Positions 1,263 through 61,986 of a DNA stretch of 64,000 bases are shown here, piece by piece. The notes below the pieces were generated by a model that saw nothing but the letters and a program-made list of their open reading frames with translations, ran no database searches and was not told the DNA's origin. The DNA comes from Cyanidioschyzon merolae (taxonomy: Eukaryota). Position 1 is the stretch's first letter, and the number at the start of each line of letters is the position of its first letter. A program made the position numbers and the translations under genes. The stretch is from assembly GCA_000091205.1 (NCBI GenBank), contig AP006492.2. One strand, given 5' to 3'.

Positions 1263-1644
1263 CAAGCATGACTGGCGAATACGCGGAAGCGCAAGATATA
1301 ACGACGGCTGGCACACATCAGGTTCCGAACTTGCTGTGGGTATGACGTGTGTCGCTCCGAGGCCGACAACTACACGATGCGCTTCGACGACCTGAAGCGA
1401 CGCTCGCGCTCGATGCCACGTCTATGCTGTTTTGCATGGCGTCCTGTTTCTTACTTCTTTTATCTAAAAATAGGCCTTGACAATGGTTTCAGGCTGGGTT
1501 TTCGGCTCCGACGGGTTTCGCATCCGGTCCGTCCTCGTTCTCTGTGTCCAGTGCGTGCATCGCCTTGTTGCGGACTCGGCGCGGGCGCCTAGGTATGGTC
1601 GCGATACTCTGTGGCCGGTTTTTCCGGGGGATTCACTCATGCAA

Positions 1645-1662
1645 ACACACACACACACACAC
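1645..1662. repeat. (AC)9 dinucleotide microsatellite in IR arm A
   Basis: acacacacacacacacac read directly. Confidence 0.9.
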
Positions 1663-3216: not shown

Positions 3217-3714
3217 GGTGAAGGTATGCTCCTAAGAACCCGACAATACGCTTCGCGACGCTCGAACCAGGAAAAGCGTGCGTTCGTATCGCTGGGAGTC
3301 GCCGCGGCGCATCGATTCCGTTTTGTACAGGATGTGGATCGATATGCGCGCGGCGCCACGGCGACGCGGGGTCGTCATCGTGCCGAACGTGTGCATCCTC
3401 TGAAATATGTCCGTTAAGTACAGAAAAAGACAGATCGTTGCGACGGCTGCAGAAGCACATCGCGCAGGGCGGTGCCATGTACGTAACGTCCTTTTACGGA
3501 AGATAAGTACAATATAGTACAATATGTTACAGGCCTGGCGGGATATCGACGGCGTGCACTGCGCTCGTAGCGCCGACGCTGCAACCAGCGACCCTGTTGA
3601 CGTCCCCTGTACGCACCGAAGCGCTCACGAGGTCTGTGGGGCGTTCGTGTAGGTCCTAGGGCGCCTGTGTGTGTCTCTGTGTTCTGACGTTACGTTTAGC
3701 CGCAAACAGGCACG
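3217..3714. promoter_or_regulatory. Putative bidirectional promoter region shared by the divergently transcribed RPL10 and RPL15 genes
   Basis: A 498 bp spacer lies between two head-to-head ribosomal-protein CDSs. It has a local AT-rich patch (tacagaaaaagacag..., tacaatatagtacaatatgttacag). This is inferred from arrangement only. Confidence 0.4.
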
Positions 3715-16116: not shown

Positions 16117-16988
16117 CATGGAGTCGCCAACAGCACCGGTGTTTCCAGAAGAACCGCATCCTGTGATACGTGAAAGCCCATGTCGAAGAACGGTCGATCA
16201 AGTGTGTGCGGTATAAAGTAAGCTCTTGTTGGCTCGCGGCAGTGACCGCAAAGGTTCCCATCTCGCACGACGCTGAACGCGGTGAGGGTATTCAGCATGC
16301 GTATGCCTCTCAGCGGGCTGCATGCTGGAATATCGTTACCGGAAGAGCCGTTCTGTTTTTTATCGTTTTCCTTGCGGGTATTCAACAAAAGCCAAGTGTC
16401 CTGTAGAATGGACTGAGCTCACGGAAAGTCTTGCTGACGTTACTGCTCGCTTGCGAAAAATGGGTTTCGTTGCGCGGGTCAGTGATTCTGCTGCGAGCAG
16501 GTGACTGCACCATGGTACGCGTCGACCGTATCCTGAACGCTGTGCGCCCAAAACACAACATGTCAAAGTGTAACCGCACGATCGTCTCCTCGTCGAAACA
16601 TTCCGCAGCGTACGTTCTCTAAGAGATACGACCGAGGAAGCAGCAGGATATGACGTTTCCGGACCGCTGATGCAAACGGCTATGAAGAGACGTGCATGGA
16701 CTCTGCAAAAAACGTGCACATGTACAAGAGACCGTCGCGCGTTGAACAAGACACGCGATCGATTTCGTACTTGGCAGCGAACGCTCATTACGGGAGGGAA
16801 GATAAGGTTGGTCGTCTCACTCAAGGAGACTTTGCTGCTGCTTCGCTGATTTTGTTTATAGGGGAGGGTCCGGAAAGACGCTCGGCAGCGTGTGGATATG
16901 CTCGCAACTGAGAAGCAGACGAGGACGTACCTGAAGAATCGCAAATGCGTTCATAGACAAGTTGAGTTTCAGTACCGCCGTCCACCCA

Positions 16989-17007
16989 GTGTGTGTGTGT
17001 GTGTGTT
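16989..17007. repeat. (GT)n microsatellite in IR arm B (mirror of the (AC)n at 1645)
   Basis: gtgtgtgtgtgtgtgtgtg read directly. Confidence 0.9.
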
Positions 17008-17391
17008 TGCATGAGTGAATCCCCCGGAAAAACCGGCCACAGAGTATCGCGACCATACCTAGGCGCCCGCGCCGAGTCCGCAACAAGTCGATGCACGCAC
17101 TGGATACAGAGAACGAGGACGGACCGGATGCGAAACCCGTCGGAGCCGAAAACCCAGCCTGAAACCATTGTCAAGGCCTATTTTTAGATAAAAGAAGTAA
17201 GAAACAGGACGCCATACAAAACAGCATAGACGTGGCATCGAGCGCGAGCGTCGCTTCAGGTCGTCGAAGCGCATCGTGTAGTTGTCGGCCTCGGAGCGAC
17301 ACACGTCATACCCACAGCAAGTTCGGAACCTGATGTGTGCCAGCCGTCGTTATATCTTGCGCTTCCGCGTATTCGCCAGTCATGCTTGTCA

Positions 17392-17661
<270 letters not shown>

Positions 17662-19891
17662 CTACAATGAGGTACAGCTGGTTCACGCGTACAAGTAGGC
17701 AGCGCTTCAGGAGCTTCGCGAGGACACTGGTGCATCGCGTTCCTGGTTTCTCGTCTGTAGCGAGGAGATGGACTCGAGTTTCACAGGGTCCACGGAGAGC
17801 GACGGCATACCCATCTGAACGCACGTTGTAAAACCTAGACCTGTTTCGAGATACCAGGCTCGCTCTTGCGACCGTTCAAGGCAAGCAGAGGGAGCGAGGT
17901 TGTGGAGAGCGTGGATTCCAGTTTGAAAGGCGTCACCGCGGTTGCCGTACCGCAAAACAGGACGACGGCGCGAGAGACATGAACGGAGAGCGGATGAAGC
18001 TGCTCAGCTCTTCCAGGGCGCGGTATTGTCGGGATCCGGGCACCAAAGACGCCAGCAGGCATACCGACAAGTCGAATGACAGCGTCTGGGCTCGTCTCGA
18101 TGCGCTATGCGCCGGTATCGAGCAGCGACGTGTGCTTTCTACGCTTCACGCGCAACGTATACGGGCCGCCACGAACGACTCACGCGGATACGCTTTGGCA
18201 AACGCACATGAGCCGGTGCTGGGGTCGCCGACGGCCTCACTTGCACCGATGCGAGAAGCGTGCACCATCCCTCTTCTCCGATGAGTCAGATACGCAAATC
18301 ACTGGTCAGCGAGTCGCTCGACGGTAGCCTACGCTGCTGGACGTACGCTCGTGCGGAAAGGCGCTGCCTCCGATCCTTGTATGGAGCCTCGACCGGGTCC
18401 AGGCATTGATCTGCTGCGATGCGCATCGATGGGCCTCCAAGACTACATACAGGTATCATGAGCGCAGGCGCACGCTGAGCCACATAGAGAACAAGAGCGT
18501 TGCACAGAGCGGGATGCACTGTATGGTGCTCGGTTCGCTGACGCAACCCCAGATACTGGGGCAATCACAAGGGCGTTGCTTGCGACGTTGTGATTCCGCC
18601 AGCAACAGTGTGGCGTACACGTACTTTCGGCGCCGAGACTCGAACGCCCCGCTCAACATATGGAGATATCTCGTGCATGCGGGGCGTCGAACGGCTTTGT
18701 ATCGAGCGAACGTTCGAGATCCTCGTTGAGGACTCGGTACATGCACTGTGCTGAAACGCTAGCGACTTTCGATGAAAAAAATCTGTGGTAAAGTCACAGG
18801 GCAGGGGATTCTCGCATGGACCACGGCACTGGTATGGGTACGGTTCAGCGATCCAGCAAGTCCAGCGTGCCCCATATACGCACAGCGAAAGCCTCTACTG
18901 CGTAAATGGTGAACGATCATTGTCGTCCACTATTCCATAGAACAGAGTATGCGGCAGCAACATCGATCCATGAAGTTGCCCGTTCTGCCCGGCGAATGCA
19001 TAGCATGTGCTCAGAGCAGAGCAGTCGACACACACCATCCTGTGATCTTGGAACGATGGGCGGCATTTTACGCTGCACAAACGCAACCGCGTCCTGGATA
19101 TCGCGCAATATCCCCCAACAACACCGAGACGAAATGCGAGTGCGTATGCTTAAAGCGGAAAGTCCGTTGCCAGCTGTAAACAGTGCTCTAGACGAGCGTC
19201 TAACCACTTGTTCTAGTCTAGTTGGATAGCAACGAGCCGCTTTTAGCGATTTTCGGCATATGCAGGGGCACTTTCGCGAGAGCGCAGCGGCAAGCCCCAA
19301 AAAGCGCCCATGCCTGTCCGAATGCGCTGGCAGCAGGCACCAAAGCGGGATTACGAGCGCTCGCCACACAACCCTGGTGCACGATGCGCGGCATCCGGAC
19401 TGGGGACGCTGCCTACCCGAGGCAGCGTCGGATGCGGATGTGGATTTCGCCCCTCTGCGAGTCACTGCTTCATCTGATGTGGCTGGTGCGCAGCACAATC
19501 GTCTAGGTCGCGCTTGTCTGCAAGCGTTTGCAAGCTGGATACAAGGTGTTCACCTTTTCGTGCAAAAAAATCTTGCTGTTTCTGGCGCTATCTTCCAGTA
19601 TAGATATCCGGCGAGGAAGGAGCTCTCGGTAGGATGTCATCTTGGACATCAGCTACACACCAGTGAGAGAGGGATGGCGGGCAATTTCGGCCAACAACGT
19701 CATCCATGTCGTCCTTGAGCGGACCCAGGAATCACGAACCGTCGGCACAGAGCAAATACGGCTGGCTATCAACAAGGCCTCTCAAAGCCTCCCCAGAGAC
19801 TCACGAGGAGCTCTGTGATCGGCCCGCAGTCGGGAGCATCCTTTGCATTGCCGCGATGTGGACGCGCTTGTCAACGGCAAGTCCCAAATTC

Positions 19892-22918: not shown

Positions 22919-23330
22919 GTGCGTCGATCAGCTGATGCCCATGGTCGATCGAGGTGGCACGCATCCAGGGTCCAGCGATCAACACGGTAATCAGTATTGT
23001 CCATAAAAGTTCTGTTTGTGTGTGCGTCGATCAGCTGATGCCCATGGTCGATCGAGGTGGCACGCATCCAGGGTCCAGCGATCAACACGGTAATCAGTAT
23101 TGTCTATAAAAGTTCTGTTTGTGTGTGCGTCGATCAGCTGATGCCCATGGTCGATCGAGGTGGCACGCATCCAGGGTCCAGCGATCAGCACGGTAATCAG
23201 TATTGTCCATAAAAGTTCTGTTTGTGTGTGCGTCGATCAGCTGATGCCCATGGTCGATCGAGGTGGCACGCATCCAGGGTCCAGCGATCAACACGGTAAT
23301 CAGTATTGTCCATAAAAGTCCTACGTGTGT
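22919..23330. repeat. Tandem satellite, 103-bp unit x 4.0
   Basis: The unit gtgcgtcgatcagctgatgcccatggtcgatcgaggtggcacgcatccagggtccagcgatca(a/g)cacggtaatcagtattgtc(c/t)ataaaagttctgtttgtgt recurs at 22919, 23022, 23125 and 23228. Confidence 0.9.
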
Positions 23331-23537
23331 GCACCTCCATTCGAGCGAGCGCGCACAGCTCCACTCGAGCGCAGGTTCCACGCGGCGGATCGAGGCGCCC
23401 CGGAGCGCGCGCGTCCTGCGAGGAGCGCAAAGTACGTCCGCAGGTACCTGGCAGTAACCTCACACGGACGACATCTCTTATCGTTCAACCGGAGCTCGTA
23501 TCGCGCTGAGAAATATCAAACTTCGGTAACGACGAAA

Positions 23538-32518: not shown

Positions 32519-33193
32519 TCACTTGCGCCACTCCGTGGACTCATCCTTCATTGCAATAGAGGGCGGTTTACCGCGACCCAGTTTCATTTTTAACCATTGG
32601 ATAAGGCTCATAGCTTGTTCGGGTCGAATCATCTGCGTCGGATAGTCAAAATCTTTCGCAATAACGCGGTAGCCGTACTCCAGGTCATCAGCGGTATACT
32701 TTCGCAACGCGGAGTACTTGCGCAGGGCGGCGTGGATCATGCGACGCCCCTGCTCACTGAAAACAGAGCGTGCCACTCCCTTGTTCAAAGTGTCGCCATA
32801 GAATTTGCGTCCCCAGCTCGTGCGCATAGCGTTAACCAGCATCTTCGCGCGCCCGTCGCCTCTCATGGTGCCCAGTGGGTACCACAGCCCCGAGACGGGA
32901 CTACGCGCGAGAATTGCAAACACCGGTGTACCGTCTTCAGGAACCTCTAGTTCGCTAGGCGGTGCCAGTGGAGCATTAGGTTTACCTTTCTTGGCTTGGA
33001 GGCCAATAACGCCTCGATGCGGCAGTGCGGTCGAGCGATGCACCCCAGCGGCGCTTGCCGGTGCGCTCTGTACGCGTGACCTTGGACAGAAAACACCGTG
33101 GGTATGAGCAGTTGTTAGAGATACCGCTTGTCCATTTCTGTTTAGACTTGGTTTCCAACGTGTACCACTGAAACCAGCGCCTTGGATGAACAT
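32519..33193 (-). CDS. Hypothetical conserved-looking protein, 224 aa
   Basis: ORF with a non-repetitive C-terminal half (MLVNAMRTSWGRKFYGDTLNKGVARSVFSEQGRRMIHAALRKYSALRKYTADDLEYGYRVIAKDFDYPTQMIRPEQAMSLIQWLKMKLG). Family not recognised. Confidence 0.4.
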   Translation of the reverse strand: MFIQGAGFSGTRWKPSLNRNGQAVSLTTAHTHGVFCPRSRVQSAPASAAGVHRSTALPHRGVIGLQAKKGKPNAPLAPPSELEVPEDGTPVFAILARSPVSGLWYPLGTMRGDGRAKMLVNAMRTSWGRKFYGDTLNKGVARSVFSEQGRRMIHAALRKYSALRKYTADDLEYGYRVIAKDFDYPTQMIRPEQAMSLIQWLKMKLGRGKPPSIAMKDESTEWRK

Positions 33194-33699
33194 CTGTTAC
33201 CAGTTCACCTGTGCGGCACACGAAGAGTGATGGACAATGCCTGCAATGTTCGTTGTACGGAAGGCCATCGATGGGCAGCGAGTCGTGATCGCCGGCTCCG
33301 CTGCGTGCCCGCCGTGAGCACCCCCGCAGCAGCGCTCATGGTGCCGGTGCAGATGTATGCTTGAGTCAGAGCGACTTGGCCGTACCACTTTGGGCATCGG
33401 ATGGAGTAATACTACAGCTGGCATGGAATTAGGGCTAGGTATCATTCTGGGAACCTGAAATATAGGCAGATGGACGTACTGGCTACGGCCACGCGAAGCG
33501 ATATGCTTGGAGATAACTGCAATATGAGCAACGCCCAGTCGCAGCTTGAATGCCCCTAGTCCCAGAATAAGCTGCGTTGCGAACGAGTCGCGCAGGTCTC
33601 GCCGGAGCAACCGCCACTTTAGAGGCACACCGAGCGCAAACCTGGGAGACTCGTCCGGCTCGCGGGACCTGCCTCCTGTACGGTAAACTTTCGACAATA

Positions 33700-36600
33700 T
33701 GGAAACCTGTTCCCGCTCTAAAATTTTTTTTGTTGAGGGGAAAGAAATTATTTTCTAGTTGCTAGGTAGTGGTTGGTCTCTGTCCTTTATTACGATATGG
33801 CGCACTCGATACGCCCACCTCCATATTCGGCAGGAACGGAACACGTCGCGCATGTCGCCTTTGTGGGGAGACACGATCCTGGGCACTCGTTGACCTACTG
33901 CTCTAACGGGCAAGTTGTACTAACATGAAAGTCGCATCAAAGTATAGTCTTCCATTCCAGTTGTGTTTCAACCCTCAAGTAAGTGTATTCAAGTGATTTT
34001 TTGCAGTTTATAACGAAAGCGTTCACAGCGCGGTTTTCTCAAAAATAACAAAGTAGTGGAAGTGGAATTGGAGGATTCTCGAGGACCGATATCGCCGGCT
34101 GAAGGGAAAAACGAAAAGAATTGCCGAGCAGAGAGGACCAGGAGAAGACAAAGAAGCTGAGACAGGAGGCCAGACGTCAAAGGCTGCACGAGAGACGACA
34201 GTGCGACGAAATGGTGGTGCAAGCTCTTCTTCTACGCCGTACCAAGCATCCCTGTGGGCAAACGTTGCGAGAGGCCATCAGAAACCGTGTCGAGTCGTAC
34301 TCCGTGAGTATTATAAAGGCCTCGTCAGGGCTAATGCATTTGGTGAAGGAGATGTACCATCACATTACGGATATCACAACAGTCGAGGTTCCGGAAGAAT
34401 TTTTCATCGGGACCTTTATTCGCCACCTGATGCCTGGCACAGGGAAAATGTCGACGAAATGCGAGGGAGTGCACGCCCTCCACGAAAAATTTCCCCTTTA
34501 GAGCTCCAATGGTGCTCGATACAGGGATGAAGGAGATATTTACACCTACAGGGCGATGAAGTACTTCACGAATCTGAAGGACCACGTGAAAATGAACCGC
34601 GAACGTTTCATGAAACGCTCCGTATTTGCGCTCTACCCGGGCATCTCTCGCAAGCGGATACGTGCGATTATCCATGGCATCATGAACAATCGCCAGCATG
34701 GACAGGAGATCGAATTCGTTGACGAGAAGACATCACTCTGGTAAACGAATCAGGCTTATGTCATTCGTGCGGTTATACAAGAGCACCGTGCAATCTTGGG
34801 GCTGGCGAACCCAACAGAAAAGGTATTAGATTTGAAAAAAGATAAGGAAAGATGCTATCGCCTCGTCCTACGCTATTTCGTGTTCCTGGACCGAGAACTG
34901 GAACGCAAGGCGGAGATGACGCTGAGTGAGGAAAACAATGATGAATGGCAGAGACGGAAGGCTGTCCTGATGGGTAAGCGCTTCAATGGCGTTCCGTTGT
35001 GCAGCATCAAGTCGCACTATGTGATTATCGACTCCAGAGTCCTCTACGGCGTCATGGAGGAGACCTGTCCGCAGTTCGATGGAAGGAAGACGGAGTTCAC
35101 CGGTGAAAGCCGGGAGACGTACTGGAAGAATATCTTCTATTTCAAACGTCGCAAAGTGAGCAAGCAGAGGGTATTCACGGGCATAATCGAAACCGATGGA
35201 GTGTCCATGTGTGTACACTGTCGGCGGTTGAAGGCGGATCGTCCTATCGTGCCTTCGGCTTCGCCCGTGACGAAGCATGAAGAAAAGAAAGAGGCGGATC
35301 CTGCGACGCAGGAGGTGCATGAGAGTGACTTTGTCGTCGGCGTGGACCCCGGAAACACGATGAATATAGCCGTTGCAGCACCCAAGCGTGCGGAAGATGG
35401 CAGTGACGGTGACTTACGTCAGAAAGACATGCGTCTTTTCAAGCTCTCGAGAGCAAGATACCATCGAGAATCGGGAATCATGAATGCGAGGAAGAAAATC
35501 GAGACGTGGAATGCAGGAATCAAGGATCACCTGGAAGTTATGGGCGAGGTGGCGAGCCGCGGAGCAGACTTTAAAGCTTTTCGGGAGTTCGTGAAAATTC
35601 GTGTTGCCCATTGGGGTGCGCTGTGGAAAGAGTACGCCAAGCCCCGGTGGGCTCGTCTGCGTATGAACCTGTACTGTGGAAAACAGCGTGCATTCGCGAA
35701 TTTTTTCAATCAGTTGAGAGCCTTGAAGGAGGCCGAGAGTCAGAGGCTCGTAGTGGCATACGGAGCAGGGCGCAGGAAGACCCATAAAGGAACTACGCCA
35801 GCTCCAAGGACGAGAGCGTACAAGGAATGTGCACCGCGTTTCGACACGATACCTGTAGATGAGTTCCGAACGTCGTATACACATCATGAACTGGGGGTGT
35901 ACGCTTCAGAGAGTTGGGATGGAAAAGCGCCAGCAGAGCTCCGAGGATATGGCAAAAGTACGGAGCCCTGACGGAAGAGCAAATGGAAAGGAGGGCGAAC
36001 GTTCGTGGACTACTTGCATCAGTGAGTACAACCAGTGATGGCAAGAAACGTATGGAGTTCGTGAATAGAGACTTTCATGCAGCTATCAAAATAAGAAGAC
36101 GTGCGATGATGGAGAAAAGACCTGCAGAGTGGACGCGAGAGAACTTTGTTGGGCAACGTCTCAAGGTGGAACTATATGAGAAAAACTTGAGACCAGTAGA
36201 AGGTGGCCGGTCCAAAAAGACGGGGAAGCGTCTGCACATCAGTTGGAGACGTTTCGTCTGGGGCAAGTTTCTCGCCACAACTGTGCACTGCCGGCGACTG
36301 CTTTCGACTTTTAAAAGGCGTTCGCTAGCGGTGTCTTTCCAGCCGTCGTCCGGTGTACTCGCGAAAGGACCAATGTGATGCACAGAGGTAGATGCCGGAA
36401 ACAGAAGCGCGCCCTAGGTTTCGTGGATACAAGGCGCGGACCCACGTAGAGATATTCCCGAAAGTTTCCCAAGGGCTACGTTCGAGTCCAAAGTAAATAC
36501 TCTTCGGAACATCAGACGACGAGCTATGCCCTTTGTCATGGACGCAGCGGAGCGGAGGACATTGTCGCCGCCACCGCCACCACCACCAACGCACCCGCAG

Positions 36601-36980: not shown

Positions 36981-38870
36981 ATGCCAACCGTAACAGTTAT
37001 ACGCGATCGATTCTTGAAGGCACTGGACTCTGATCTCGATGAAGCGGCGCTAGAGCAACTCTGCTTCTCGTATGGTCTAGAAGTGGAAACCGTGGAGGAC
37101 GAGCCGCTGAGCGACCTGCTCGGCGGCCAGCGCGCTCGCTCTGGTTGGTCAGACTCCATCGACGACGTCGAAAACTACGCAGGCCCTCTAGACCAGCACG
37201 TCGCTTGTTTAAAAATCGAGGTACCGGCAAACCGTCCAGACTTGTTGTGCTTCGAAGGCTTAGTGCAGGCGCTTCGCGTCTTCCGCGGCCTTGATAAACC
37301 AGCTGCGTTTCTGCTGCAGCGAACGGAGCCGCGGGAGCGGATCCTTGTGAGAACGAATGCACTGCGCCCATACATTGTGGCTGCAGTGCTGCGCGGTATA
37401 GACCTATCGGATCCGCTGCGGTATCAGTCGCTGATGGATCTACAGGAGCACCTTCATCAAAACCTAGGTCGTCGCCGTGCGCTCGTCGCGATCGGTACGC
37501 ACGACCTCGATACTGTCAAGGGGCCCTGCACCTACACGGTGAAAGACCCCAGAGAGATTCGCTTTCGACCATTGGCCGCTGAGCGCGAGCTGAGCGGTCT
37601 CGAAATCATAGAGCACTACCGACTCGACAAGCATCTGAAACGCTACCTGCCGCTCGTGGAAGGTGCACAGGCGTACCCGCTCCTTCATGATAGCGAGGAT
37701 CAGGTGCTATCGCTCCCGCCTATCATCAATGGTGATCGAACCAAAATCCGTCCTAGCACGCGAAATATGTTGATCGAATGCACTGGAACGGACCTAGTGA
37801 AGCTCACCACCGCGCTGACCGTCATCGTGGCCTCCTTCTCCCGGTATTGTCTGCCGGCGTTTTATGTGGAGCCAGTGACGATTCACTACGATCAACCGCT
37901 ACCGGAGGATAGGCTTGCAGCGATCAAAGCCAACGTGCTCGATTCGCAAACGCTATGCACACCGTGGGTCGAGGACGCGCAAATGCAGGTTTCTGCGCGT
38001 TACGTACAATCGCTACTGGGGGTCTCGCTCTCGGTATCGGAGCTGGAACGTCACCTTCAGCGCATGCAGTTGCACCTAGTGTCTGTCGTGGAAAACGAGG
38101 CATTCGATCAGGTCCTCAACGTTCAGGTACCAGTCTTCAGGAGCGACATCCTCCATCCGTGTGACGTTGCGGAGGACGTAGGCGTCAGTTATGGTTTCGA
38201 TCATGTTCCCGAGCGCACTGCTCCCTGTGTGCCAGTCGGGCAGTGGCGACCCTTGGAGCGCTTAACAGATCATCTTCGTCGCGAGCTCGCGCAACAGGGA
38301 TACTTCGAGGTTTTAACCTGGGTAACCGTGTCGCACGCTGAAAATACCGAAATGCTGCAACGCAGCGATGCACAGTCGCCAGCTGTGCGTCTACATAATC
38401 CCAAAACTCTAGAATTCGAGGAATGCCGGACCAGTCTTCTCGTGGGGCTGTTGAAGACACTTCGCGAGCATCGGGAAGCGCCGCTTCCTCTGCGCCTTTT
38501 CGAGACCGGTGATGTCGTCCTGCTTGATTCCAAAAGCGAGACCGGAGCCCGAAATGAGCGTCATCTTGCGGCAGTTTATAGTGACGTCCGCGCAGGTTTC
38601 GAGATCGTGAAGCATCTTCTCGATCGGATCATACTTGCTTTGAATTTGAAGTCCTTGGGATACAATGCAGGTTACCGACTGGACCCAAAAGCTTGTCACG
38701 ATGACCTCTTCTTTCCAGGTCGACGAGCGACGATTCTTGTGGAGCGGCCCAACGGGGCTCGGTTCGCGCTCGGGAGTATGGGCTGGCTCCACCCGCAGGT
38801 ACTGAAGAACTTTGGTCTTGCGGCGCCAGCGTCAGCGTTCGAGTTGAACGTGCAACCTTTTGCTGCGTAG
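36981..38870 (+). CDS. FARSB: Phenylalanyl-tRNA synthetase beta subunit (cytosolic/archaeal-eukaryotic type), about 629 aa
   Basis: MPTVTVIRDRFLKALD... is the typical PheRS-beta N-terminus (MPTVSV.RD.L). It has B3/B4 and B5 domain-like segments. The C-terminal catalytic-like fold ...LNPKTLEFEECRTSLLVGLLKTLREHREAPLPLRLFETGDVVL...FFPGRRATI is the conserved eukaryotic FARSB core. Confidence 0.88.
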   Translation: MPTVTVIRDRFLKALDSDLDEAALEQLCFSYGLEVETVEDEPLSDLLGGQRARSGWSDSIDDVENYAGPLDQHVACLKIEVPANRPDLLCFEGLVQALRVFRGLDKPAAFLLQRTEPRERILVRTNALRPYIVAAVLRGIDLSDPLRYQSLMDLQEHLHQNLGRRRALVAIGTHDLDTVKGPCTYTVKDPREIRFRPLAAERELSGLEIIEHYRLDKHLKRYLPLVEGAQAYPLLHDSEDQVLSLPPIINGDRTKIRPSTRNMLIECTGTDLVKLTTALTVIVASFSRYCLPAFYVEPVTIHYDQPLPEDRLAAIKANVLDSQTLCTPWVEDAQMQVSARYVQSLLGVSLSVSELERHLQRMQLHLVSVVENEAFDQVLNVQVPVFRSDILHPCDVAEDVGVSYGFDHVPERTAPCVPVGQWRPLERLTDHLRRELAQQGYFEVLTWVTVSHAENTEMLQRSDAQSPAVRLHNPKTLEFEECRTSLLVGLLKTLREHREAPLPLRLFETGDVVLLDSKSETGARNERHLAAVYSDVRAGFEIVKHLLDRIILALNLKSLGYNAGYRLDPKACHDDLFFPGRRATILVERPNGARFALGSMGWLHPQVLKNFGLAAPASAFELNVQPFAA

Positions 38871-46418: not shown

Positions 46419-47612
46419 CTACGTTGCGGGCAGCGCAAGGGTGCGCGATGCTGCGAGCCACGGCTCGAATGCAAACCCCAACATATCGAAAAGAGGAGGC
46501 AGCAACGCCAGACTGAAAAAGAAGAAGATGCTGTAAATCGCACCGCTCGCCGCAAAACGTGCTGCGGCACAATAAGACACCCTGCTCTTCGCCTCGTGCC
46601 GGGCGCGCTTCGCGCCCGGCACATCGGGTGCGTGGCGGTCATCCGCTGATGGGCTTCTCTTAGAGCGCCACCTTGAGCCCGGCTCGCTCGTCGAGCCTTT
46701 CGCTATCGACTCCGATTCCGTACATGGAGACGAAAACAGATACCCTTTCGCGTCCTCTTTCTCACTCGGTGGCGGTGTACCAACTTGTGACGCTCCCGTC
46801 CAGCCCAGTTGACCGTTCGAGATAGTCAAGAACGAGGCGAGTTCTCGCAGCACCGACTTGGTGACACAAGCGAAACCGACAATCATTCGCTGACCATTTG
46901 TCGGAGGTTTTCCGTTTGTCTCGCAGCTAGCTTGCGACGCGGCCTCATTCGGGTTGTCTGGCGAGCTCCTCGCTTCCACAGTGCGAGTGCTTTGCGCGCA
47001 CACGAGCGCTTCCAGTTCGCGAACGCGTTCCCTCAGCCGTTGATTCTCGACCGCGAGATCGCTGAGTGCCCGAGATAACAACAGGTAGTCTCCAATGCCC
47101 ATGTCGCGAGAACTCCACGCTGTGTCCTCTAAACAAAATGATGCAGCACGAGGCGACTGTGGCAGCGACTCCGCGGCGACAGTGCACCCACCAAAGTCGG
47201 TGGACGAGTCCGTCTCGAACCGCCCTGAAGTAGGTATGATACCCGAACGTACCTCCCATTCACCATTTTGTTCGTCTTGAGAACAAGATTCTAAGTTAAG
47301 AAAGTTGTCCCAGTTAGATAGGTTTGTTGAGGTCGTGTGTTCCACTGCCATGCAGTCCGTTTCGAGGCGAACGCAAAACACGAATCGGATACGGGATCGC
47401 GTATGCGTGTGCGCCTTCGAGAATCGCGGAGGCGCTTCCAACCGATCGGACACGTGTCCCGCGCGTTGATCCACAGGCATGCGTGCCTGGCGGATGAAAT
47501 CCCTGATTTTGTTGGATAGGGCCCAGACAATGTGCCTGGATTCTAGAGTGCGCGTTGCAACTGGGCACTCGGGAAAGCATCCATCATACTTCGTGATACG
47601 TCCAAGTTCCAA
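46419..47612 (-). CDS. Hypothetical coiled-coil protein, 397 aa
   Basis: Long ORF with a Cys/His-containing N-terminus (ITKYDGCFPECPVATRTLESRHIVWA) and a heptad-like segment (LSDLAVENQRLRERVRELEALV). No family assigned. Confidence 0.35.
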   Translation of the reverse strand: MELGRITKYDGCFPECPVATRTLESRHIVWALSNKIRDFIRQARMPVDQRAGHVSDRLEAPPRFSKAHTHTRSRIRFVFCVRLETDCMAVEHTTSTNLSNWDNFLNLESCSQDEQNGEWEVRSGIIPTSGRFETDSSTDFGGCTVAAESLPQSPRAASFCLEDTAWSSRDMGIGDYLLLSRALSDLAVENQRLRERVRELEALVCAQSTRTVEARSSPDNPNEAASQASCETNGKPPTNGQRMIVGFACVTKSVLRELASFLTISNGQLGWTGASQVGTPPPSEKEDAKGYLFSSPCTESESIAKGSTSEPGSRWRSKRSPSADDRHAPDVPGAKRARHEAKSRVSYCAAARFAASGAIYSIFFFFSLALLPPLFDMLGFAFEPWLAASRTLALPAT

Positions 47613-50480
47613 GACCCATTCATTGTTTCGAATAGACTGGTCGTTCCATACGATCCATGATGCTCCGAGCCTGTCGTACGCATCCGCAAGAGCGTGAAGA
47701 GAGCCAGTGCGGACACCGGACGCGGGTAGACCACTTTTTTATCATTCCGCTGAGGGCGGCTGCTCGAGGCGTGGTCCACCTGACGCGGGATCCGGTTTCG
47801 TTGTCAGTGCACGCTCTGGCAGGCTGCATATGGGACCCTATTGAAGCGGCACGGCGCTTTGGAGAAATCTAACTGCTAGGAAGAATTCTGGCCATAGAGT
47901 CTCACATTCGCCATCGGATACGGATTGCGTTGCGGTATAGGAGCGCGGGTCTTGGCTCGGTACCCATCAGCGAGGAGGTAGATGAAACGCTGGGCCGGCA
48001 CGCCCATCCGTATTGCGCAGCCTTCAGCCAAGAGGCTAGAATGTGAGATTGGTCGGCGCTCGCGGGGTTGTGGCTCAGACAGAGGAACACCAGGTGCCAG
48101 AACTGCAATCAATGCGAATGATCGTCCTCGATCGCCTATAGTGACGTTTCGAAGATGTGCTCCCTCAGGGAGCCTGCAGTGATCCTCTAGCCAAAGCGGA
48201 CTCTGTAGAAACGACTTTGTGTGTGTGTGTGTGTGAGTCACAGGAGTTGCGTACACGAAGCCAAGGTGGTGTGATTCCCTGTGAGCCGCTTATGTCTTGG
48301 TACGGCATGCAGCCGGGGCCAGCGACAACGGACTGACACGCGCGTTGGCGAGCCAGTTGGTGACTCGGGCAAGCACTATGCACACCAGCGCCTCCTATCA
48401 AGAGCAGCGTGCATCTACTATATCCACGTTTGAATAAAACAGAACGAGTCCATCTGGCTACTTCGAGCGTACTCGATAGAGTATGTGTCATAATCATAGT
48501 CTTCATCACCGGCGTTCGTCAGCCTCTGCTTCAACTGTTTTGTTTCCCTCTGTCTTGTCTCCGGAGAGAAGTACGCCCGTCTTTCCTGCGGCTTCGGATC
48601 CGTTGTCAACAGTTAAACGATGTTCACCTCAGCGTTCTGGTCCCGATTTTGCTGCTTGAGGCTGGTGTTCACGCGTTTTATGCACAGAAAAAGTGCTCGA
48701 TCGGCGCATCGCTCGCAATGTTCGACTTCTTCGAATTAATCCATTGTACGTTCTTCACAGCAGCGATGCTCATTTGTGGTCATGTGTCCCTCGGAGATCC
48801 AAAACACCTTCGCTTTCTTCGAGGGCCACTTCGAGACTCGTGAACGCTTCCTTTCCTGCTCGATATATGCGGTGGACGGGGACAGGAGGCTTCATTGGAC
48901 CCCGCTCCCTGGTTCCCGTGTCAGGGGCCATACTCTAAGATAACGGGCTACTTGTGAACGATTTCTTCGCCCAGTACTCTGCTCTAGGAAGCGGAAGCGC
49001 ACGCGATTCCATTCGATAGATGATCTGTGGAACACGATGTCGTTCGTGCTGAAACTAGAACGGGGAGGAAAACCCGAACTGGAGATCGTGCCGGGAATTT
49101 TCGATCCGCGTACGCTCGCTTCGTGCAAAACGTTGACGTATTCTCCACTGGGACCGATCGCTCCGATGATACAAGTCCGGGGGCCACGACCCTGCTCTAT
49201 GCAAACACCCGAGACAGCAGCCTCGGTGAGTATCACTAGTGAGGCGAATCATGCTGTTGTAGATCTTTGTTTCGACGACGAGAACGAAAAGAGGAGGATT
49301 TGAATTTTGAGCAGAATCCCTCATTTGGCGTGAGAGGTTCCGTGAACCTTCGGTATGTGCTTTCAAACAAGTCGTTACGGGACGACGTCGAGTTTTCCGT
49401 CCTCTTCAATCCGATGGGATGAATCGCTGCGCTCGTGAGTAGCCTTGAAACCGAGAGATTGATACGTTAAGGGATTCGTGATTCTGGCATGCTACGCGTA
49501 ATGAAAGAAGAAGAGTAGAGGCTGAAACGTATGAATATGATCCTGGTATCGTTTACTCTATGAGCCATTTTCGATTGCGTCGCAAATCGTCTTGATCCCT
49601 GTATCGTAAAGAATTCCAGGGGGAAAATATCGAAGGCGCAACACCGGACTGGTCATCGGGACTCCTATATCTATGTATGCATCCGTCCGCCGTTTTTGCC
49701 GCATTCCGAATGTGGAGGCAGCACATCGAAAACAAGTTCGAAAAAAATTGGTACGCAGGAACAGCGCAAGCAGTTCCGTCTTCTATTTGAACCTGTGACG
49801 GATTTAGATGCCAATACCGATACGAAATGCAAGCACGTCCGTTTTCTACAACCAACCGCCTTTCCATACCTCTATACGTATCTAAGGTGCCACACTAGAT
49901 TCAAAATATATCTCATAGACCTCTACACACTGCGATACGTTCAAGAGCTTAGGGTGCTCGTACAGGCGCATGCCTACGCATATATGTACGTATAGGCACT
50001 CTCGTTGCCAGTGACAAGTACGGACCAGTGGACGCGTTTTCTCGAGTTGAGGCCGACGCCTCCACTTTGCCGTCTGTTGTACACAACGTATGCAACGGAA
50101 CTTTGGTCGGGAAAACGTGGATCGCCGCCAGTTCTAGCCTATTAGAGACCTCGTGCCATCAGCACGATCCACGTAGGGTATGGATACCGACTCACAGACA
50201 CTTCGCTGGGTTGCCCGACTCGCCGACTGGTATCAGCTTCAGCTTCTCCTGGTACATCTCGACCTCGAGAGGTTCCCCCACAGAGTTCGCTCGCGTTAGC
50301 TCCGTGGGTCTCATCTTCAGGACTGCACATCTCCTCGTATTGATGGCGGCGTTAAAGTTCACGAACGCCATGCGTTTCTTGCCTCTGCGCGAACCCATCA
50401 ATGCAAGGATTCCTAGAATTCGCGCCCTTCGTACCACTACAGCCTCATCAACGCCCCGCCGTGCGAACACGCTCTCTCGC

Positions 50481-50846
50481 CTATCCCCCTTCTTCTACTT
50501 CGTCATTTGCTATTCTTCGCTCAATGTTCGGCGAGAAGAGGACTGTTTCGTTATTTTCCGGCACCCTTGCCTATCCCCCTTCTTCTTCTACTCCGTCATT
50601 TGCTATTCTTCGCTCAATGTTCGGCGAGAAGAGGATTGTTTCGTTATTTTCCGGCACCCTTGCCTATCTCCCTTCTTCTTCTACTTCGTCATTTGCTATT
50701 CTTCGCTCAATGTTCGGCGAGAAGAGGATTGTTTCGTTATTTTCCGGCACCCTTGCCTATCCCCCTTCTTCTTCTACTTCGTCATTTGCTATTCTTCGCT
50801 CAATGTTCGGCGAGAAGAGGATTGTTTCGTTATTTTCCGGCACCCG
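50481..50846. repeat. Tandem minisatellite, 93-bp unit x about 4 (first unit 90 bp)
   Basis: The unit ctatcccccttcttcttctacttcgtcatttgctattcttcgctcaatgttcggcgagaagaggattgtttcgttattttccggcacccttgc recurs at 50481, 50571, 50664 and 50757. All three forward frames stay open through it (ORFs 50028.., 50401.., 50507..). Confidence 0.88.
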
Positions 50847-58525: not shown

Positions 58526-58759
58526 CATCTAGCGTTGCTTCAAACGCTAGCGATAGGTTCGGCAACTGAAAAGTACCTGGATCGATCCAGGGCGTGTCTC
58601 GTGAGCCATCGAAGCACTGCTATGAGGTTTGAGGTGCACAGAGGCGTAGCTAGGGGCGATCACATCTGGTCATCGTTCTCCGGTAGCGTTAGCGCATCGA
58701 AGGCAAACGTGGCTGCGTTCATCGATCCGAAACTGCAAGAGACGGGACATCTGTTCGGC

Positions 58760-58982
58760 GGCTGGTCGTAGGTGCTGCTCCAAAGCAGGTATTTCACATC
58801 GTTTCTCGCTAAACAAGTCCATTCGCTCCCACACGACACTTGAAAGCGAGCATCACCCACGGACAGGGGCGGCTGGTCGTAGGCGCTGCTCGAAAGCAGG
58901 TATTTCACATCGTTTCTCGCTAAACAAGTACATTCGCTCCCACTCGACACTTGAAAGCGAGCATCACCCACAGACGGGAACA
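58760..58982. repeat. Tandem duplication, about 111-bp unit x 2
   Basis: ggctggtcgtagg(t/c)gctgctc(c/g)aaagcaggtatttcacatcgtttctcgctaaacaagt(c/a)cattcgctccca... occurs at 58760 and again at 58871. Confidence 0.85.
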
Positions 58983-60382: not shown

Positions 60383-60952
60383 TCAGTAATAGGTAGCGTG
60401 TGCCTCCAATGCCGCCCGAAAATATCTATACCCGGATACGAGCGACAGAACCGCAGCAGCATGCAGAAAGCTCACACCGAGATACAGTACGGGTGGCGGA
60501 AGTCCGATGCTGGGTTGCGCCAGCAGCAGCAACATAATACTGCCCATCTGGAACACCGTTTTCAGTTTCCCGTGCTGATTCACGGCGACAACATCCCGTA
60601 GACCTCGAGAGGCCATCCACTCGCGTAACGCTGTGATCGCTATCTCTCGCACAAGAATAACGACGGCCGGCAGTGTGACCCAGAACCGCGCGTAACGCTC
60701 GACAAGTAAGATAAGCATCGTTGCGACGCTGAGTTTATCGGCAACAGGATCCAGGAACGCGCCCCATACGCTCGATACGTTAAGGCGACGAGCGATGTAC
60801 CCATCGAGCCAGTCTGTGAGGGAAACCATGCCGAAAAGCGTCGTGCACACAAGCGCAGCCCAGCGCTGAGAGATGTAGAAGAACACGACTATGGGCGGTA
60901 ACAAAATAAGGCGGGCAAGCGTCAGTGCATTGGGCAAGTTCCAAAAGCTCAT
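60383..60952 (-). CDS. CDP-alcohol phosphatidyltransferase (PGP synthase / cardiolipin synthase-type), core 189 aa from ATG 60952. The ORF is open upstream to 61672, so a longer presequence-bearing form is possible.
   Basis: SFWNLPNALTLARLILLPPIVVFFY...DWLDGYIARRLNVSSVWGAFLDPVADKL is the CDP-OH_P_transf signature D-G-x2-A-R-x8-G-x3-D-x3-D, followed by TM helices. Confidence 0.75.
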   Translation of the reverse strand: MSFWNLPNALTLARLILLPPIVVFFYISQRWAALVCTTLFGMVSLTDWLDGYIARRLNVSSVWGAFLDPVADKLSVATMLILLVERYARFWVTLPAVVILVREIAITALREWMASRGLRDVVAVNQHGKLKTVFQMGSIMLLLLAQPSIGLPPPVLYLGVSFLHAAAVLSLVSGYRYFRAALEAHATYY

Positions 60953-61454
60953 ACTTTGGACAGGTACAGGTTTCGCCTCGTGAGCGTCTGGACCCAAATC
61001 CAAACGATAGCGCTTCTCGGATTCTAGTGGCTTTTTCCGTCGGATCTGTGAGGGCACATCCTCTATGCAGCCGCGAAGGAGCGTCGGTCGTTTAGCGTGG
61101 ACGCACAAACCGCACCTCCGGAGTGAAGCAAACGCACCGTGCCTCTGTGGGGCGCGCTCCGGCGCCAACCTACCGACAGGTGCCACAAATGCCACCAGTT
61201 GCGACAAGTGGGCACCGTACAGGATGCTGCACGGCGTACACCAGAAACCCATGATGCCTATTGATGACTGGAATTCGTAACTGATTTCATGAGTAAAGCC
61301 ACACCCGCGGCACAGCACAGCAGAGCACAGTGCCGCCTTGCAGGGCAATCGCGAACGACGCTCTTCCCACGGGATGCAGTGATCCGGTAGATGCGCCTGC
61401 CGCACTGCGGCTGGACATCGACGGCGTCGGAGGCGGCATTCCTGCAGCAGTTCC

Positions 61455-61670
61455 TTATCCTGTACAAACCTGCATGAAATAGACTCCTGGGATTCGATGC
61501 GCTCCTCAATATTCAGTACAAACCTGCATGAAATAGACTCCTGGGATTCGATGCGCTCCTCAATATTCTGTACAATCCTGCATGAAATAGACTCCTGGGA
61601 TTCGATGCGCTCCTCAATATTCTGTACAATCCTGCATGAAATAGACTCCTGGGATTCGATGCTCTGACGC
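61455..61670. repeat. Tandem repeat, 54-bp unit x 4, in frame with the upstream part of the CDP-alcohol phosphatidyltransferase ORF
   Basis: cctgcatgaaatagactcctgggattcgatgcgctcctcaatattc(a/t)gtacaa(a/t) occurs at about 61469, 61523, 61577 and 61631. It translates on the - strand to (IESQESISCRIVQNIEER)x4. Confidence 0.88.
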
Positions 61671-61986
61671 ATGACGCAATCGCATTCCGCATTCCACTAG
61701 TGCGCGGTTGAGGTGTACCCGTTCGTTACGGACGGTTCCCTGGTCCGTGTGTGTATATGTGCGGAGAGTCTTCGGGTATACTTTTGAGATCGTTCTTGGT
61801 ACTCCAGCGACTGCTCTTGTTCGGAACGACGGCTCTGGCCGCCTGTTGAAACTGAACGCAGCCGACCAGAGCGAGCGCTCCTTCTGCACCACTGGCAGCA
61901 AGCACCGTTCGAGCGCACGGGCTGGCTGCCTCGAAAAGGGCGCTTTCGTGTCGTGTCTCCTTTCGACGAACCAGTGATCCGCATTT

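What the first reader, a model, noticed from the sequence alone, without database searches (positions are those of the whole stretch)
34121..36380. Decayed Fanzor/TnpB-like RNA-guided nuclease gene with all three RuvC catalytic motifs still recognisable
Read in one frame, 34121..35971 gives a colinear protein of about 620 aa. It is interrupted only by TAG at 34499-34501 and TAA at 34742-34744. It has a RuvC-I motif GVDPG (Asp codon 35345-35347) and a RuvC-II motif VDEFRTS (Glu codon 35861-35863). The -1 frame (35914..36378) then supplies NRDFHAAIKI (Asp codon 36069-36071), which is the RD.NAA.NI RuvC-III signature of TnpB/Cas12/Fanzor. The zinc-finger position between RuvC-II and RuvC-III reads YTHHELG instead of C..C, so it is degenerate. 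GIDPG-type RuvC-I plus NRD-type RuvC-III is the Fanzor flavour rather than the bacterial TnpB GIDLG. This is a eukaryotic OMEGA-family nuclease relic. Two stops and one frameshift mean inactivation was recent enough that the frame is otherwise intact. Alternatively the interruptions could be very small in-frame introns or read-through sites, which would make it an intact gene. Either way, it points to an unannotated Fanzor family in this genome.
Basis: partly seen in the sequence, partly recalled or inferred. Interest (0 to 1): 0.85.

Follow-up and report, generated by a model that had tools for sequence, protein, structure and literature searches.

The report
Dead copy of known Fanzor transposon

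Summary
The window is Cyanidioschyzon merolae 10D (exact matches of five neighbouring host proteins). Window 33299-36320 (+) aligns colinearly to positions 152-3169 of the published 3,169-bp CMe-1A Fanzor1 element consensus (Bao & Jurka 2013, PMC3627910) at about 83% identity. A profile of the family hits the solved Parasitella Fanzor1 (PDB 9cf0) at E = 5.9e-11, with the D, E and D motifs aligned.

The copy is a pseudogene with seven lesions, not three:
- start ATG>GTG
- three 1-bp frameshifts
- two stop codons
- loss of the ancestral stop

Six of the seven are shared by orthologous loci in environmental strains. The mini-intron and read-through alternatives are rejected.

The ORF has far fewer stops and indels than neutral decay from the consensus predicts, so inactivation came late in this lineage's history.

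The missing CCCC zinc finger is a trait of the whole family. The 'RuvC-II' Glu is the rearranged Fanzor-type glutamate.

New but modest: copies share a subterminal 3' hairpin and one covarying helix just after the stop codon. These are candidates for an omegaRNA scaffold.

Novelty: already known. Interest: low.

The parts
33299..36320 (+). 5'-truncated copy of the CMe-1A Fanzor1 transposable element (consensus positions 152-3169 of 3169)
   Evidence: blastn and local alignment to the published consensus: 83.2-83.8% identity, 13 small indels. Homology between independent copies ends at about this 3' position.
33299..33787 (+). TE-N2_CMe-like 5' module of the element (consensus 152-635). The first 151 bp are missing, and the truncation point lies 105 bp from the CMJ126C start codon.
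   Evidence: Alignment; 22.8% divergence. The paper states that the 5' 635 bp equal TE-N2_CMe. The 5' truncation was checked.
33788..34055 (+). Non-coding leader between the TE-N2 module and the Fanzor ORF (consensus 636-905)
   Evidence: Alignment; 20.2% divergence and several indels.
34056..36261 (+). Fanzor1 (CMe-1) pseudogene: ancestral start to ancestral stop. The repaired translation is 77% identical to the 734-aa published protein.
   Evidence: Codon-by-codon comparison; tblastn.
34056..34058 (+). Lesion 1: start codon ATG>GTG
   Evidence: shared by orthologous loci L025, L046 and L024.
34100..34112 (+). Lesion 2: 1-bp deletion in an A-run (consensus position 956), a frameshift near the N-terminus. 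The consensus has a KKRK NLS-like motif here, which has decayed to EKRKE in this copy.
   Evidence: shared by the orthologs.
34499..34501 (+). Lesion 3: TAC (Tyr) > TAG stop
   Evidence: shared by the orthologs.
34742..34744 (+). Lesion 4: AGC (Ser) > TAA stop
   Evidence: shared by the orthologs.
35345..35347 (+). RuvC-I catalytic Asp codon (GVDPG), retained
   Evidence: It aligns to the D of DPG in the solved PpFz1.
35762..35764 (+). Gly at the canonical RuvC-II glutamate position (VVAYGAG), the Fanzor-type substitution
   Evidence: Sequence; rule taken from Jiang et al. 2023.
35861..35863 (+). Alternative (rearranged) catalytic Glu codon in VDEFRTS, 33 residues after the Gly and directly before the TNB/zinc-finger position
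   Evidence: It aligns to IDEFRTS of PpFz1. Literature.
35892..35896 (+). Lesion 5: +1 insertion (5 G where the consensus has 4)
   Evidence: shared by the orthologs.
35953..35957 (+). Lesion 6: +1 insertion in GGCAAAAG. It is polymorphic (absent in L025 and L024), so it is the youngest lesion.
36070..36072 (+). RuvC-III catalytic Asp codon (NRDFHAAIKI), retained
   Evidence: It aligns to the RD of PpFz1.
36259..36261 (+). Lesion 7: ancestral stop TAG>TGG. The frame then runs on to the TGA at 36376-36378, outside the element.
   Evidence: shared by the orthologs.
36262..36276 (+). Helix directly after the stop (GGCAAGTTTCTCGCC), part of the candidate omegaRNA scaffold. It covaries across the family.
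   Evidence: A2 columns 159-175: 92% of cells paired, with a CG<->GC swap in 12 of 31 sequences.
36301..36320 (+). Subterminal 3' hairpin of the element, decayed in this copy (GAAAGG>AAAAGG)
   Evidence: Across 31 non-redundant copies the mean MFE is -10.5 against -0.65 kcal/mol for the control (p = 3e-8). Two sequence versions give the same hairpin. Window copy: -4.4 kcal/mol, z = +0.6.

Best explanation
The region is one fixed, dead insertion of CMe-1A. CMe-1A is a roughly 3.2-kb element of Cyanidioschyzon merolae with no transposase gene and no terminal inverted repeats. Its only gene is a Fanzor1 protein, the eukaryotic descendant of the TnpB RNA-guided RuvC nuclease.

Inferred mechanism, by homology to characterised Fanzor1 and TnpB:
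- In a live copy the protein would bind an omegaRNA transcribed from the element's right end.
- That RNA would use a guide read from the flanking DNA, and the protein would cut matching DNA with a single RuvC site.
- The site consists of the Asp in GxDPG, the rearranged Glu in VDEFRTS, and the Asp in NRDFNAAINI.

This particular copy cannot do that. It is 5'-truncated and has lost its start codon. It carries three 1-bp frameshifts and two premature stops, and its right-end hairpin has decayed.

Shown here: identity with CMe-1A, homology to Fanzor1, the lesion map, and fixation of the insertion across strains.

Also shown: the lineage's ORF was under purifying selection for most of its divergence from the family consensus.

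Inferred: RNA-guided nuclease activity of the ancestor, and the omegaRNA role of the right-end structures.
For: - Host and context. Five neighbouring proteins match C. merolae 10D exactly. The relic lies between CMJ126C (BAM80256) and PheRS-beta (BAM80257).
- Identity with CMe-1A. The published consensus and protein were retrieved. Window 33299-36320 equals consensus 152-3169 at about 83% identity. The repaired protein is 77% identical to CMe-1.
- Fanzor1 homology. The family profile hits PpFz1 (9cf0) at E = 5.9e-11, with ETDGV, DPG, IDEFRTS and RD..A..N aligned. Distant relatives P0034 and P0035 carry PF07282 above its threshold.
- Pseudogene status. Seven lesions, six of them shared by orthologous loci that are 99% identical to the window. 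Divergence between strains is higher in the relic (1.6-2.6%) than in the flanking coding sequences (0.3-0.6%).
- Past selection. ORF divergence is 14.0% against 20-25% in the non-coding parts. Differences by codon position are 90/77/140 (p = 2e-5). There are 2 stops against 10.4 +/- 3.1 expected (P = 0.002), and 3 indels against 19-29 expected.
- Right-end structure.
- Literature on omegaRNA position and catalytic-site arrangement.
Against: - Homology needed a family profile.
- The AlphaFold model was unusable (pLDDT 34.7), so the WED/REC/RuvC/TNB fold was not confirmed structurally.
- The family lacks the CCCC zinc finger that the founding paper and the structural papers list as conserved.
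- No expression data exist for any omegaRNA.
- The covariation evidence rests mainly on one subfamily-level swap and one hairpin in two versions, so it represents few independent events.
Confidence: 0.96

Rival explanations
1. The gene is intact and the interruptions are removed by very small in-frame introns, programmed frameshifting or stop-codon read-through.
For: The frame is unusually well preserved for 14% divergence from the consensus, and the catalytic residues are retained.
Against: - Both stops are substitutions inside conserved codons (TAC>TAG, AGC>TAA). There is no extra sequence relative to the single-exon consensus, so any 'intron' would delete conserved residues.
- The start codon is GTG. 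Three separate 1-bp indels sit in homopolymer runs, and one of them is polymorphic between strains.
- The relic now evolves faster than the neighbouring coding sequences.
- From my own knowledge (Matsuzaki et al. 2004), C. merolae has only about 27 introns in its genome.
Confidence: 0.01
2. The relic, or its right end, has been co-opted by the host. It could serve as promoter or UTR material for CMJ126C, which starts 105 bp from the truncated 5' end, or as a residual non-coding RNA.
For: The insertion is fixed in all three sampled environmental strains. The last 59 bp show 0 differences in L025 and L046, and the 5' end abuts the CMJ126C start region.
Against: Zero differences in 59 bp is not significant at about 1% divergence, since about 0.6 differences are expected. 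The terminal hairpin is decayed in this copy. Overall divergence between strains is higher in the relic than in its flanks. No Rfam family matches anywhere in the window.
Confidence: 0.03
3. It is a bacterial TnpB (IS200/IS605) acquired by recent horizontal transfer, or it is contamination, rather than a eukaryotic Fanzor.
For: Fanzor and TnpB share the same RuvC motifs. The ends lack inverted repeats and have a subterminal hairpin, as in IS200/IS605.
Against: It is embedded between nuclear host genes on a 99%-conserved syntenic block. The family profile hits only a eukaryotic Fanzor1 in the PDB, and no TnpB or Cas12 chain at E <= 10. The canonical RuvC-II Glu is replaced by Gly, as in Fanzors. 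About 150 copies are reported in this nuclear genome.
Confidence: 0.005

Closest known systems
CMe-1A element / CMe-1 Fanzor1 protein of Cyanidioschyzon merolae (Bao & Jurka 2013, Mobile DNA 4:12; PMC3627910)
   Same: Same species. About 83% nucleotide identity, colinear over consensus positions 152-3169. Same single-exon Fanzor1 ORF (77% amino-acid identity after repair). Same TE-N2_CMe-like 5' module. The divergence fits the reported 'about 80% identical to the consensus'.
   Different: This copy lacks the first 151 bp and carries seven ORF lesions. The paper reports that some copies are still intact.
Structurally and biochemically characterised Fanzor1 nucleases: Parasitella parasitica PpFz1 (PDB 9cf0), SpuFz1, GtFz1
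   Same: Significant profile homology (E = 5.9e-11). The ETDGV strand, the RuvC-I DPG, the rearranged Glu in IDEFRTS and the RuvC-III RD..A..N all align. The non-coding right end is short and structured, which is where the omegaRNA lies in those systems.
   Different: The CCCC zinc finger is absent from the CMe-1 family (HHELGC...EKC instead). There are no terminal inverted repeats, unlike SpuFz1 loci with their 30-nt repeats. No omegaRNA, TAM or activity has been demonstrated. Pairwise sequence similarity is too low for a single-sequence hit.
Bacterial TnpB of IS200/IS605 (for example ISDra2 TnpB)
   Same: Ancestral RuvC nuclease family. An element without inverted repeats or target duplications, with a subterminal hairpin. 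The guide RNA scaffold is expected at the right end, overlapping or following the 3' end of the gene.
   Different: Nuclear eukaryotic host. The canonical RuvC-II Glu is replaced by Gly. The N-terminal half is much longer. There is no Pfam OrfB or TNB hit for this protein and no TnpA partner.
Environmental relative P0033 (35% identity), encoded next to a DDE_3 Tc1/mariner-type transposase
   Same: Same protein family (E = 1.8e-86), same HH motif in place of the first zinc-finger cysteines, D and RD motifs retained.
   Different: It sits directly downstream of a transposase ORF in L002. CMe-1A encodes no transposase.

Membership tests
CMe-1A transposable element family (C. merolae) | Colinear nucleotide similarity to the 3,169-bp published consensus, at about the 80% level reported for copies | tested here: met
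   Window 33299-36320 equals consensus 152-3169; 83.2% (blastn) or 83.8% (ungapped positions); 13 small indels.
CMe-1A transposable element family (C. merolae) | Resides in the Cyanidioschyzon merolae nuclear genome | tested here: met
   Five neighbouring proteins are exact matches to C. merolae 10D entries on an 839,707-bp record.
CMe-1A transposable element family (C. merolae) | Encodes the 734-aa single-exon CMe-1 Fanzor1 protein | tested here: met
   All 734 codons are alignable. 77% amino-acid identity after repair of three frameshifts, but the gene is inactivated.
CMe-1A transposable element family (C. merolae) | 5' 635 bp corresponding to TE-N2_CMe | tested here: inconclusive
   Consensus 152-635 is present at 77% identity, and positions 1-151 are absent. 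The TE-N2_CMe sequence itself was not retrieved.
CMe-1A transposable element family (C. merolae) | No terminal inverted repeats and no recognisable target-site duplication | not tested
   This copy is 5'-truncated, so its ends cannot be compared. The flanks of other copies show a T-rich 5' motif and no obvious duplication.
Fanzor1 (eukaryotic TnpB-like RNA-guided nuclease) | Significant sequence homology to an experimentally validated Fanzor1 | tested here: met
   Family profile A1 against the PDB: PpFz1 9cf0, E = 5.9e-11, two colinear stretches. The single sequence alone gave no hit.
Fanzor1 (eukaryotic TnpB-like RNA-guided nuclease) | RuvC-I Asp, and RuvC-III Asp within an RD..A..N helix motif | tested here: met
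   GVDPG (35345-35347) and NRDFHAAIKI (36070-36072). Both align to the corresponding PpFz1 motifs.
Fanzor1 (eukaryotic TnpB-like RNA-guided nuclease) | Rearranged RuvC-II: Gly or Pro at the canonical Glu position, and an alternative Glu downstream, just before the TNB domain | tested here: met
   VVAYGAG (Gly 35762-35764), and VDEFRTS Glu 33 residues later. Rule from Jiang 2023 and Xu 2024.
Fanzor1 (eukaryotic TnpB-like RNA-guided nuclease) | C4 (CCCC) zinc finger between the [TS][TS] motif and the RD motif | tested here: not met
   The consensus CMe-1, P0001, P0002, P0005 and the window all read TSYTHHELGC...EKC...LVSTTS, without CxxC pairs. P0034 and P0035 keep CxxC...CxxxC and pass PF07282. 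The founding paper nevertheless places CMe-1 in Fanzor1, so this is a family-level departure and not a reason for exclusion.
Fanzor1 (eukaryotic TnpB-like RNA-guided nuclease) | WED/REC/RuvC/TNB fold | tested here: inconclusive
   AlphaFold2 on P0001 with the 11-sequence alignment: mean pLDDT 34.7, pTM 0.21. The model was not usable for fold search.
Fanzor1 (eukaryotic TnpB-like RNA-guided nuclease) | omegaRNA scaffold encoded at the element's right end, with the guide read from the flank | tested here: inconclusive
   A conserved subterminal hairpin (p = 3e-8 against the control) and one covarying helix after the stop. The global RNAalifold signal is weak. There is no Rfam hit and no expression data.
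Fanzor1 (eukaryotic TnpB-like RNA-guided nuclease) | RNA-guided, TAM-dependent double-strand DNA cleavage | not testable with these tools
   This requires biochemistry on a reconstructed intact CMe-1 protein with its right-end RNA.
Bacterial TnpB (IS200/IS605, IS607) | Canonical RuvC-II glutamate, OrfB_IS605 / TNB Pfam domains, prokaryotic IS context with TnpA | tested here: not met
   Gly at the canonical position. No Pfam family at E <= 10. Eukaryotic nuclear context.

The most novel reading that the evidence does not exclude
CMe-1A may be a eukaryotic element that moves in an IS200/IS605-like or Helitron-like way, through single-stranded DNA and an HUH-type transposase supplied in trans.
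- Its conserved right-end hairpin and the helix after the stop would form the omegaRNA scaffold of a Fanzor1 lineage that works without the CCCC zinc finger.
- The T-rich TGATTTTTTT motif found just upstream of full-length copies would be its target-site or TAM motif.
- The lineage kept its ORF under selection for a long time, so it might still be active in some hot-spring Cyanidioschyzon populations.
Probability: 0.12. Interest if true: 0.5.

Novelty: already known. Interest (0 to 1): 0.15.

Why it matters
It matters little as a discovery. The exact family in this exact species was described in the 2013 paper that defined Fanzors, so this locus adds one more dead copy out of about 150.

There is modest added value:
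- It is a clean worked example that a Fanzor1 relic can be recognised from raw sequence.
- There is quantitative evidence that the CMe-1 ORF was kept under selection long after the family diversified. This supports the earlier remark that the protein has a function for the element.
- The whole family lacks the CCCC zinc finger.
- A candidate right-end RNA structure and a left-flank motif could guide an experimental test of a thermo-acidophilic Fanzor1.

Tried and rejected
- Pfam scan of the repaired 752-aa translation: no family, even at E <= 10.
- phmmer of the same sequence against the PDB: only a chance hit at E = 2.3. Homology became visible only with the family profile.
- PF26935, precomputed on the relatives, is DUF8286. 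The hits are weak and uninformative, and they were not reproduced by the local Pfam copy.
- AlphaFold2 on P0001 with alignment A1: pLDDT 34.7. I discarded the model and ran no fold search.
- Rfam scan and tRNA scan of the whole window: nothing.
- RNAalifold on 235 nt of the right end: weak global consensus of -1.66 kcal/mol. The two helices I proposed inside the ORF (A2 columns 115-130 and 144-156) are explained by sequence conservation and are not supported as structure.
- Search for intact copies among 80 environmental loci: none is full length.
- Considered and rejected: mini-introns or read-through, bacterial TnpB or contamination, and a protein-coding function on the opposite strand. The last is rejected because the relic diverges faster between strains than the neighbouring coding sequences.
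Full report
**1. The observation**

It has TAG at 34499-34501 and TAA at 34742-34744, GVDPG (Asp codon 35345-35347) and VDEFRTS (Glu codon 35861-35863). The frame 35914-36378 contains NRDFHAAIKI. The Asp codon there is 36070-36072, one base later than reported. The region is purine-rich on the + strand and has slightly lower G+C than its surroundings: 0.513, with GC skew +0.157 and AT skew +0.176.

**2. First homology tests**

The repaired conceptual protein has no Pfam hit, even at E <= 10, and no meaningful PDB hit by single-sequence search. A search of the large protein collection found 35 clusters:
- 32 close relatives (52-75% identity), all from JGI metagenomes
- one relative at 35% identity (P0033)
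- two relatives at 26-27% identity (P0034 and P0035)

P0034 and P0035 pass the Pfam threshold for PF07282, the Cas12f1-like/TnpB TNB zinc-ribbon domain. They have CxxC...CxxxC and RDHNAALNI.

A profile built from 11 family members (A1) hits the solved Parasitella parasitica Fanzor1 (PDB 9cf0) at E = 5.9e-11. The match has two colinear stretches that align ETDGV, the DPG of RuvC-I, IDEFRTS and the RD..A..N of RuvC-III. No TnpB or Cas12 chain appeared at E <= 10. This establishes Fanzor1 homology independently of the literature.

**3. Host and context**

Five neighbouring ORFs are exact matches to Cyanidioschyzon merolae 10D proteins on an 839,707-bp record: Sec13, ferredoxin-sulfite reductase, CMJ123C, CMJ126C and phenylalanyl-tRNA synthetase beta. 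Their Pfam content fits an intron-poor photosynthetic eukaryote. The relic lies between CMJ126C (32519-33193, minus strand, BAM80256) and PheRS-beta (36981-38870, BAM80257). These accessions are consecutive, so no protein is annotated across the relic.

**4. It is a published element**

A literature search showed that the paper which defined Fanzors (Bao & Jurka 2013, PMC3627910) lists one Fanzor1 family in C. merolae, called CMe-1A. The paper reports these properties:
- a 3,169-bp consensus
- about 150 copies, each about 80% identical to the consensus
- no terminal inverted repeats, and target duplications undetermined
- a 5' 635 bp that equals another repeat, TE-N2_CMe
- a single-exon 734-aa protein
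- some copies still encoding intact protein

I retrieved the consensus DNA and the protein from the supplementary files. Window 33299-36320 aligns colinearly with consensus positions 152-3169 at 83.2% identity (blastn), or 83.8% over ungapped positions with 13 small indels. After repair, the protein is 77% identical to CMe-1. The finding is therefore a 5'-truncated copy of CMe-1A.

**5. Lesion map**

Relative to the consensus ORF (positions 906-3110), the copy carries seven lesions:
- start ATG>GTG (34056-34058)
- a 1-bp deletion in an A-run at about 34106
- TAC>TAG (34499)
- AGC>TAA (34742)
- an extra G in the run 35892-35896
- an extra base in GGCAAAAG at 35953-35957
- the ancestral stop TAG>TGG (36259-36261)

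The last lesion lets the frame run on to the TGA at 36376-36378, beyond the element end. The stretch CTLQRVGMEKRQQSSEDMAK between them is readable in the third frame.

Both stops are substitutions in conserved codons, and there is no extra sequence at those sites. With the lost start and the three frameshifts, this rules out mini-introns or read-through.

**6. Catalytic and domain features**

The three acidic residues are retained. According to Jiang et al. 2023, Fanzors replace the canonical RuvC-II Glu with Gly or Pro and use an alternative Glu downstream. According to Xu et al. 2024, that Glu sits on the loop between the fifth beta-strand and the TNB domain. Here the canonical position reads VVAYGAG (Gly 35762-35764), and the Glu of VDEFRTS lies 33 residues later, directly before the zinc-finger position.

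The CCCC zinc finger is described as conserved in SpuFz1 and TnpB and is part of the 2013 motif definition. It is absent here, but this is a property of the family and not of this copy. The consensus and the environmental relatives all read TSYTHHELGC...EKC...LVSTTS. In this copy the second of those cysteines has additionally become Arg.

The consensus N-terminus has a KKRK motif, in keeping with the N-terminal nuclear localisation signals reported for Fanzors. In this copy the motif has decayed and is separated from the rest of the ORF by a frameshift.

**7. History of the copy**

The ORF is 14.0% diverged from the consensus, while the element's non-coding parts are 20-25% diverged (Fisher p = 1.7e-7). 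Differences fall 90/77/140 on codon positions 1/2/3 (chi-square p = 2e-5).

I simulated 307 neutral substitutions on the consensus ORF using the observed mutation spectrum. This gives 10.4 +/- 3.1 stop codons, against 2 observed (P = 0.002). At the non-coding indel rate, 19-29 indels are expected in the ORF, against 3 observed (P <= 7e-6).

Most of this lineage's divergence from the consensus therefore accumulated while the ORF was under purifying selection, and inactivation came late.

'Late' is relative, however. Three metagenome contigs (L025, L046, L024) are orthologous, being about 99% identical across the relic and both flanking genes. They share six of the seven lesions. Only the 35953-35957 insertion is polymorphic. 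The insertion and its inactivation therefore predate the divergence of these strains.

Between strains the relic ORF differs by 1.6-2.6%, against 0.3-0.6% in the flanking coding sequences. So there is no present constraint on either strand. The differences are clustered, which suggests gene conversion among paralogous copies or assembly chimerism.

**8. The family in the environment**

A metagenome scan found 344 stretches encoding relatives, of which 80 loci were fetched. None has a full-length intact ORF. The best (L001/P0001) covers consensus residues 53-699. The 35%-identical relative P0033 lies directly downstream of a DDE_3 (Tc1/mariner-type) transposase ORF. This association is known for Fanzor1 (abstract of PMC3627910).

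**9. Right end and a candidate omegaRNA**

In characterised systems the omegaRNA is transcribed from the transposon right end. [quoted passage not shown]

In CMe-1A copies, conservation holds up to consensus position 3169, or a few bases beyond, and then collapses. The last 20-25 nt form a hairpin that occurs in two different sequence versions: CGTTTTTC-TTTT-GAAAGGCG and CG(Y)CGTTCGA-CTT-TCGAACGGCG. Across 31 non-redundant copies:
- mean MFE is -10.5 kcal/mol, against -0.65 for a same-length coding control
- mean z is -2.07, against +0.41
- Wilcoxon p = 3e-8

A helix directly after the stop codon (window 36262-36276) is paired in 92% of cells and shows a CG<->GC swap in 12 of 31 sequences. Two further helices that I proposed inside the ORF are not supported beyond sequence conservation. 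The global RNAalifold signal is weak, and Rfam has no match.

I rate this as moderate evidence for a structured right end. It is compatible with an omegaRNA scaffold, or with a DNA hairpin used in transposition. In the window copy the terminal hairpin has decayed (MFE -4.4 kcal/mol, z = +0.6).

At the other end, 17 distinct full-length copies share (C/G)TGAT followed by a T-run immediately upstream of the published consensus start. This is either about 10 more nucleotides of element, or a target-site or TAM-like motif.

**10. Structure prediction**

AlphaFold2 on P0001 with the 11-sequence alignment gave mean pLDDT 34.7.

**11. Verdict**

The core interpretation (a Fanzor relic and a pseudogene) is right. 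The lesion count, the intron alternative and the claim of an undescribed family are not. The element is a member of a family already published for this genome, so the novelty class is 'already known' and the interest is low.

Noticed in passing
window 1-2299 (-) and 16351-18656 (+): These two stretches are inverted duplicates at 98.3% identity, and the left one runs off the window edge. Each carries a much older Fanzor-like relic, about 25% amino-acid identity to CMe-1. Remnants FTGSTESDGI and RRDSNAPLNI are readable, the Glu motif is lost and stops are present. This looks like a second, unrelated and more decayed Fanzor-derived repeat. The 2013 paper lists only one family for this species.
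   Followed up: partly
window 50216-50446 (-): A short fragment of another CMe-1A copy. It covers protein residues 640-719 at 58% identity, and consensus DNA 2833-3019 at 74%. It lies next to a 93-bp tandem repeat at 50476-50845.
   Followed up: partly
window 47537-47806 (+): A 270-bp match to consensus positions 27-293 of CMe-1A at 68% identity. This is probably a solo TE-N2_CMe-like fragment.
   Followed up: no
window 35036-35072 and 35498-35617, compared with L025 and L046: Differences between strains inside the relic are clustered in short blocks, and they raise its divergence to 1.6-2.6%, against about 0.5-1.2% in other non-coding DNA. This suggests ectopic gene conversion among the many CMe-1A copies, or chimeric metagenome assembly.
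   Followed up: partly
5' flanks of full-length copies, e.g. L045:1175-1214, L049:2526-2565, L036:3657-3696: 17 distinct full-length copies share (C/G)TGAT plus a T-run (TGATTTTTTT) immediately upstream of the published consensus start. This may be extra element sequence, or a target-site or TAM-like motif.
   Followed up: partly
3' flanks of copies, e.g. L013, L077, L074, L069 (A2 columns 221-233): After the terminal hairpin many copies continue with TT(T)G and then TTGGTG or TTGATGGTG. Copies of the same subfamily in different contexts share 10-19 nt beyond the published consensus end. The true 3' terminus may therefore lie somewhat downstream of consensus position 3169.
   Followed up: partly
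L002:588-1466 and 1501-3459: The 35%-identical relative P0033 is encoded directly downstream of a DDE_3 (Tc1/mariner-type) transposase ORF on an ENA metagenome contig. That is a different carrier element from the transposase-less CMe-1A.
   Followed up: no
P0001, P0002, P0005 (e.g. L001:8001-10259): Several environmental copies carry two or three extra tandem copies of a roughly 25-residue segment (KHEE-K-A-P-TQ-V-DND-VV) in the linker just before the RuvC-I DPG motif. The window copy and the consensus have one copy of it.
   Followed up: no
window 22919-23331, 58757-58978, 61456-61665: Short tandem repeat arrays with units of about 103-111 bp at 94-97% identity. The last one lies inside the ORF 60383-61672, where it encodes the repeated peptide IESQESISCR.VQNIEER.
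   Followed up: no
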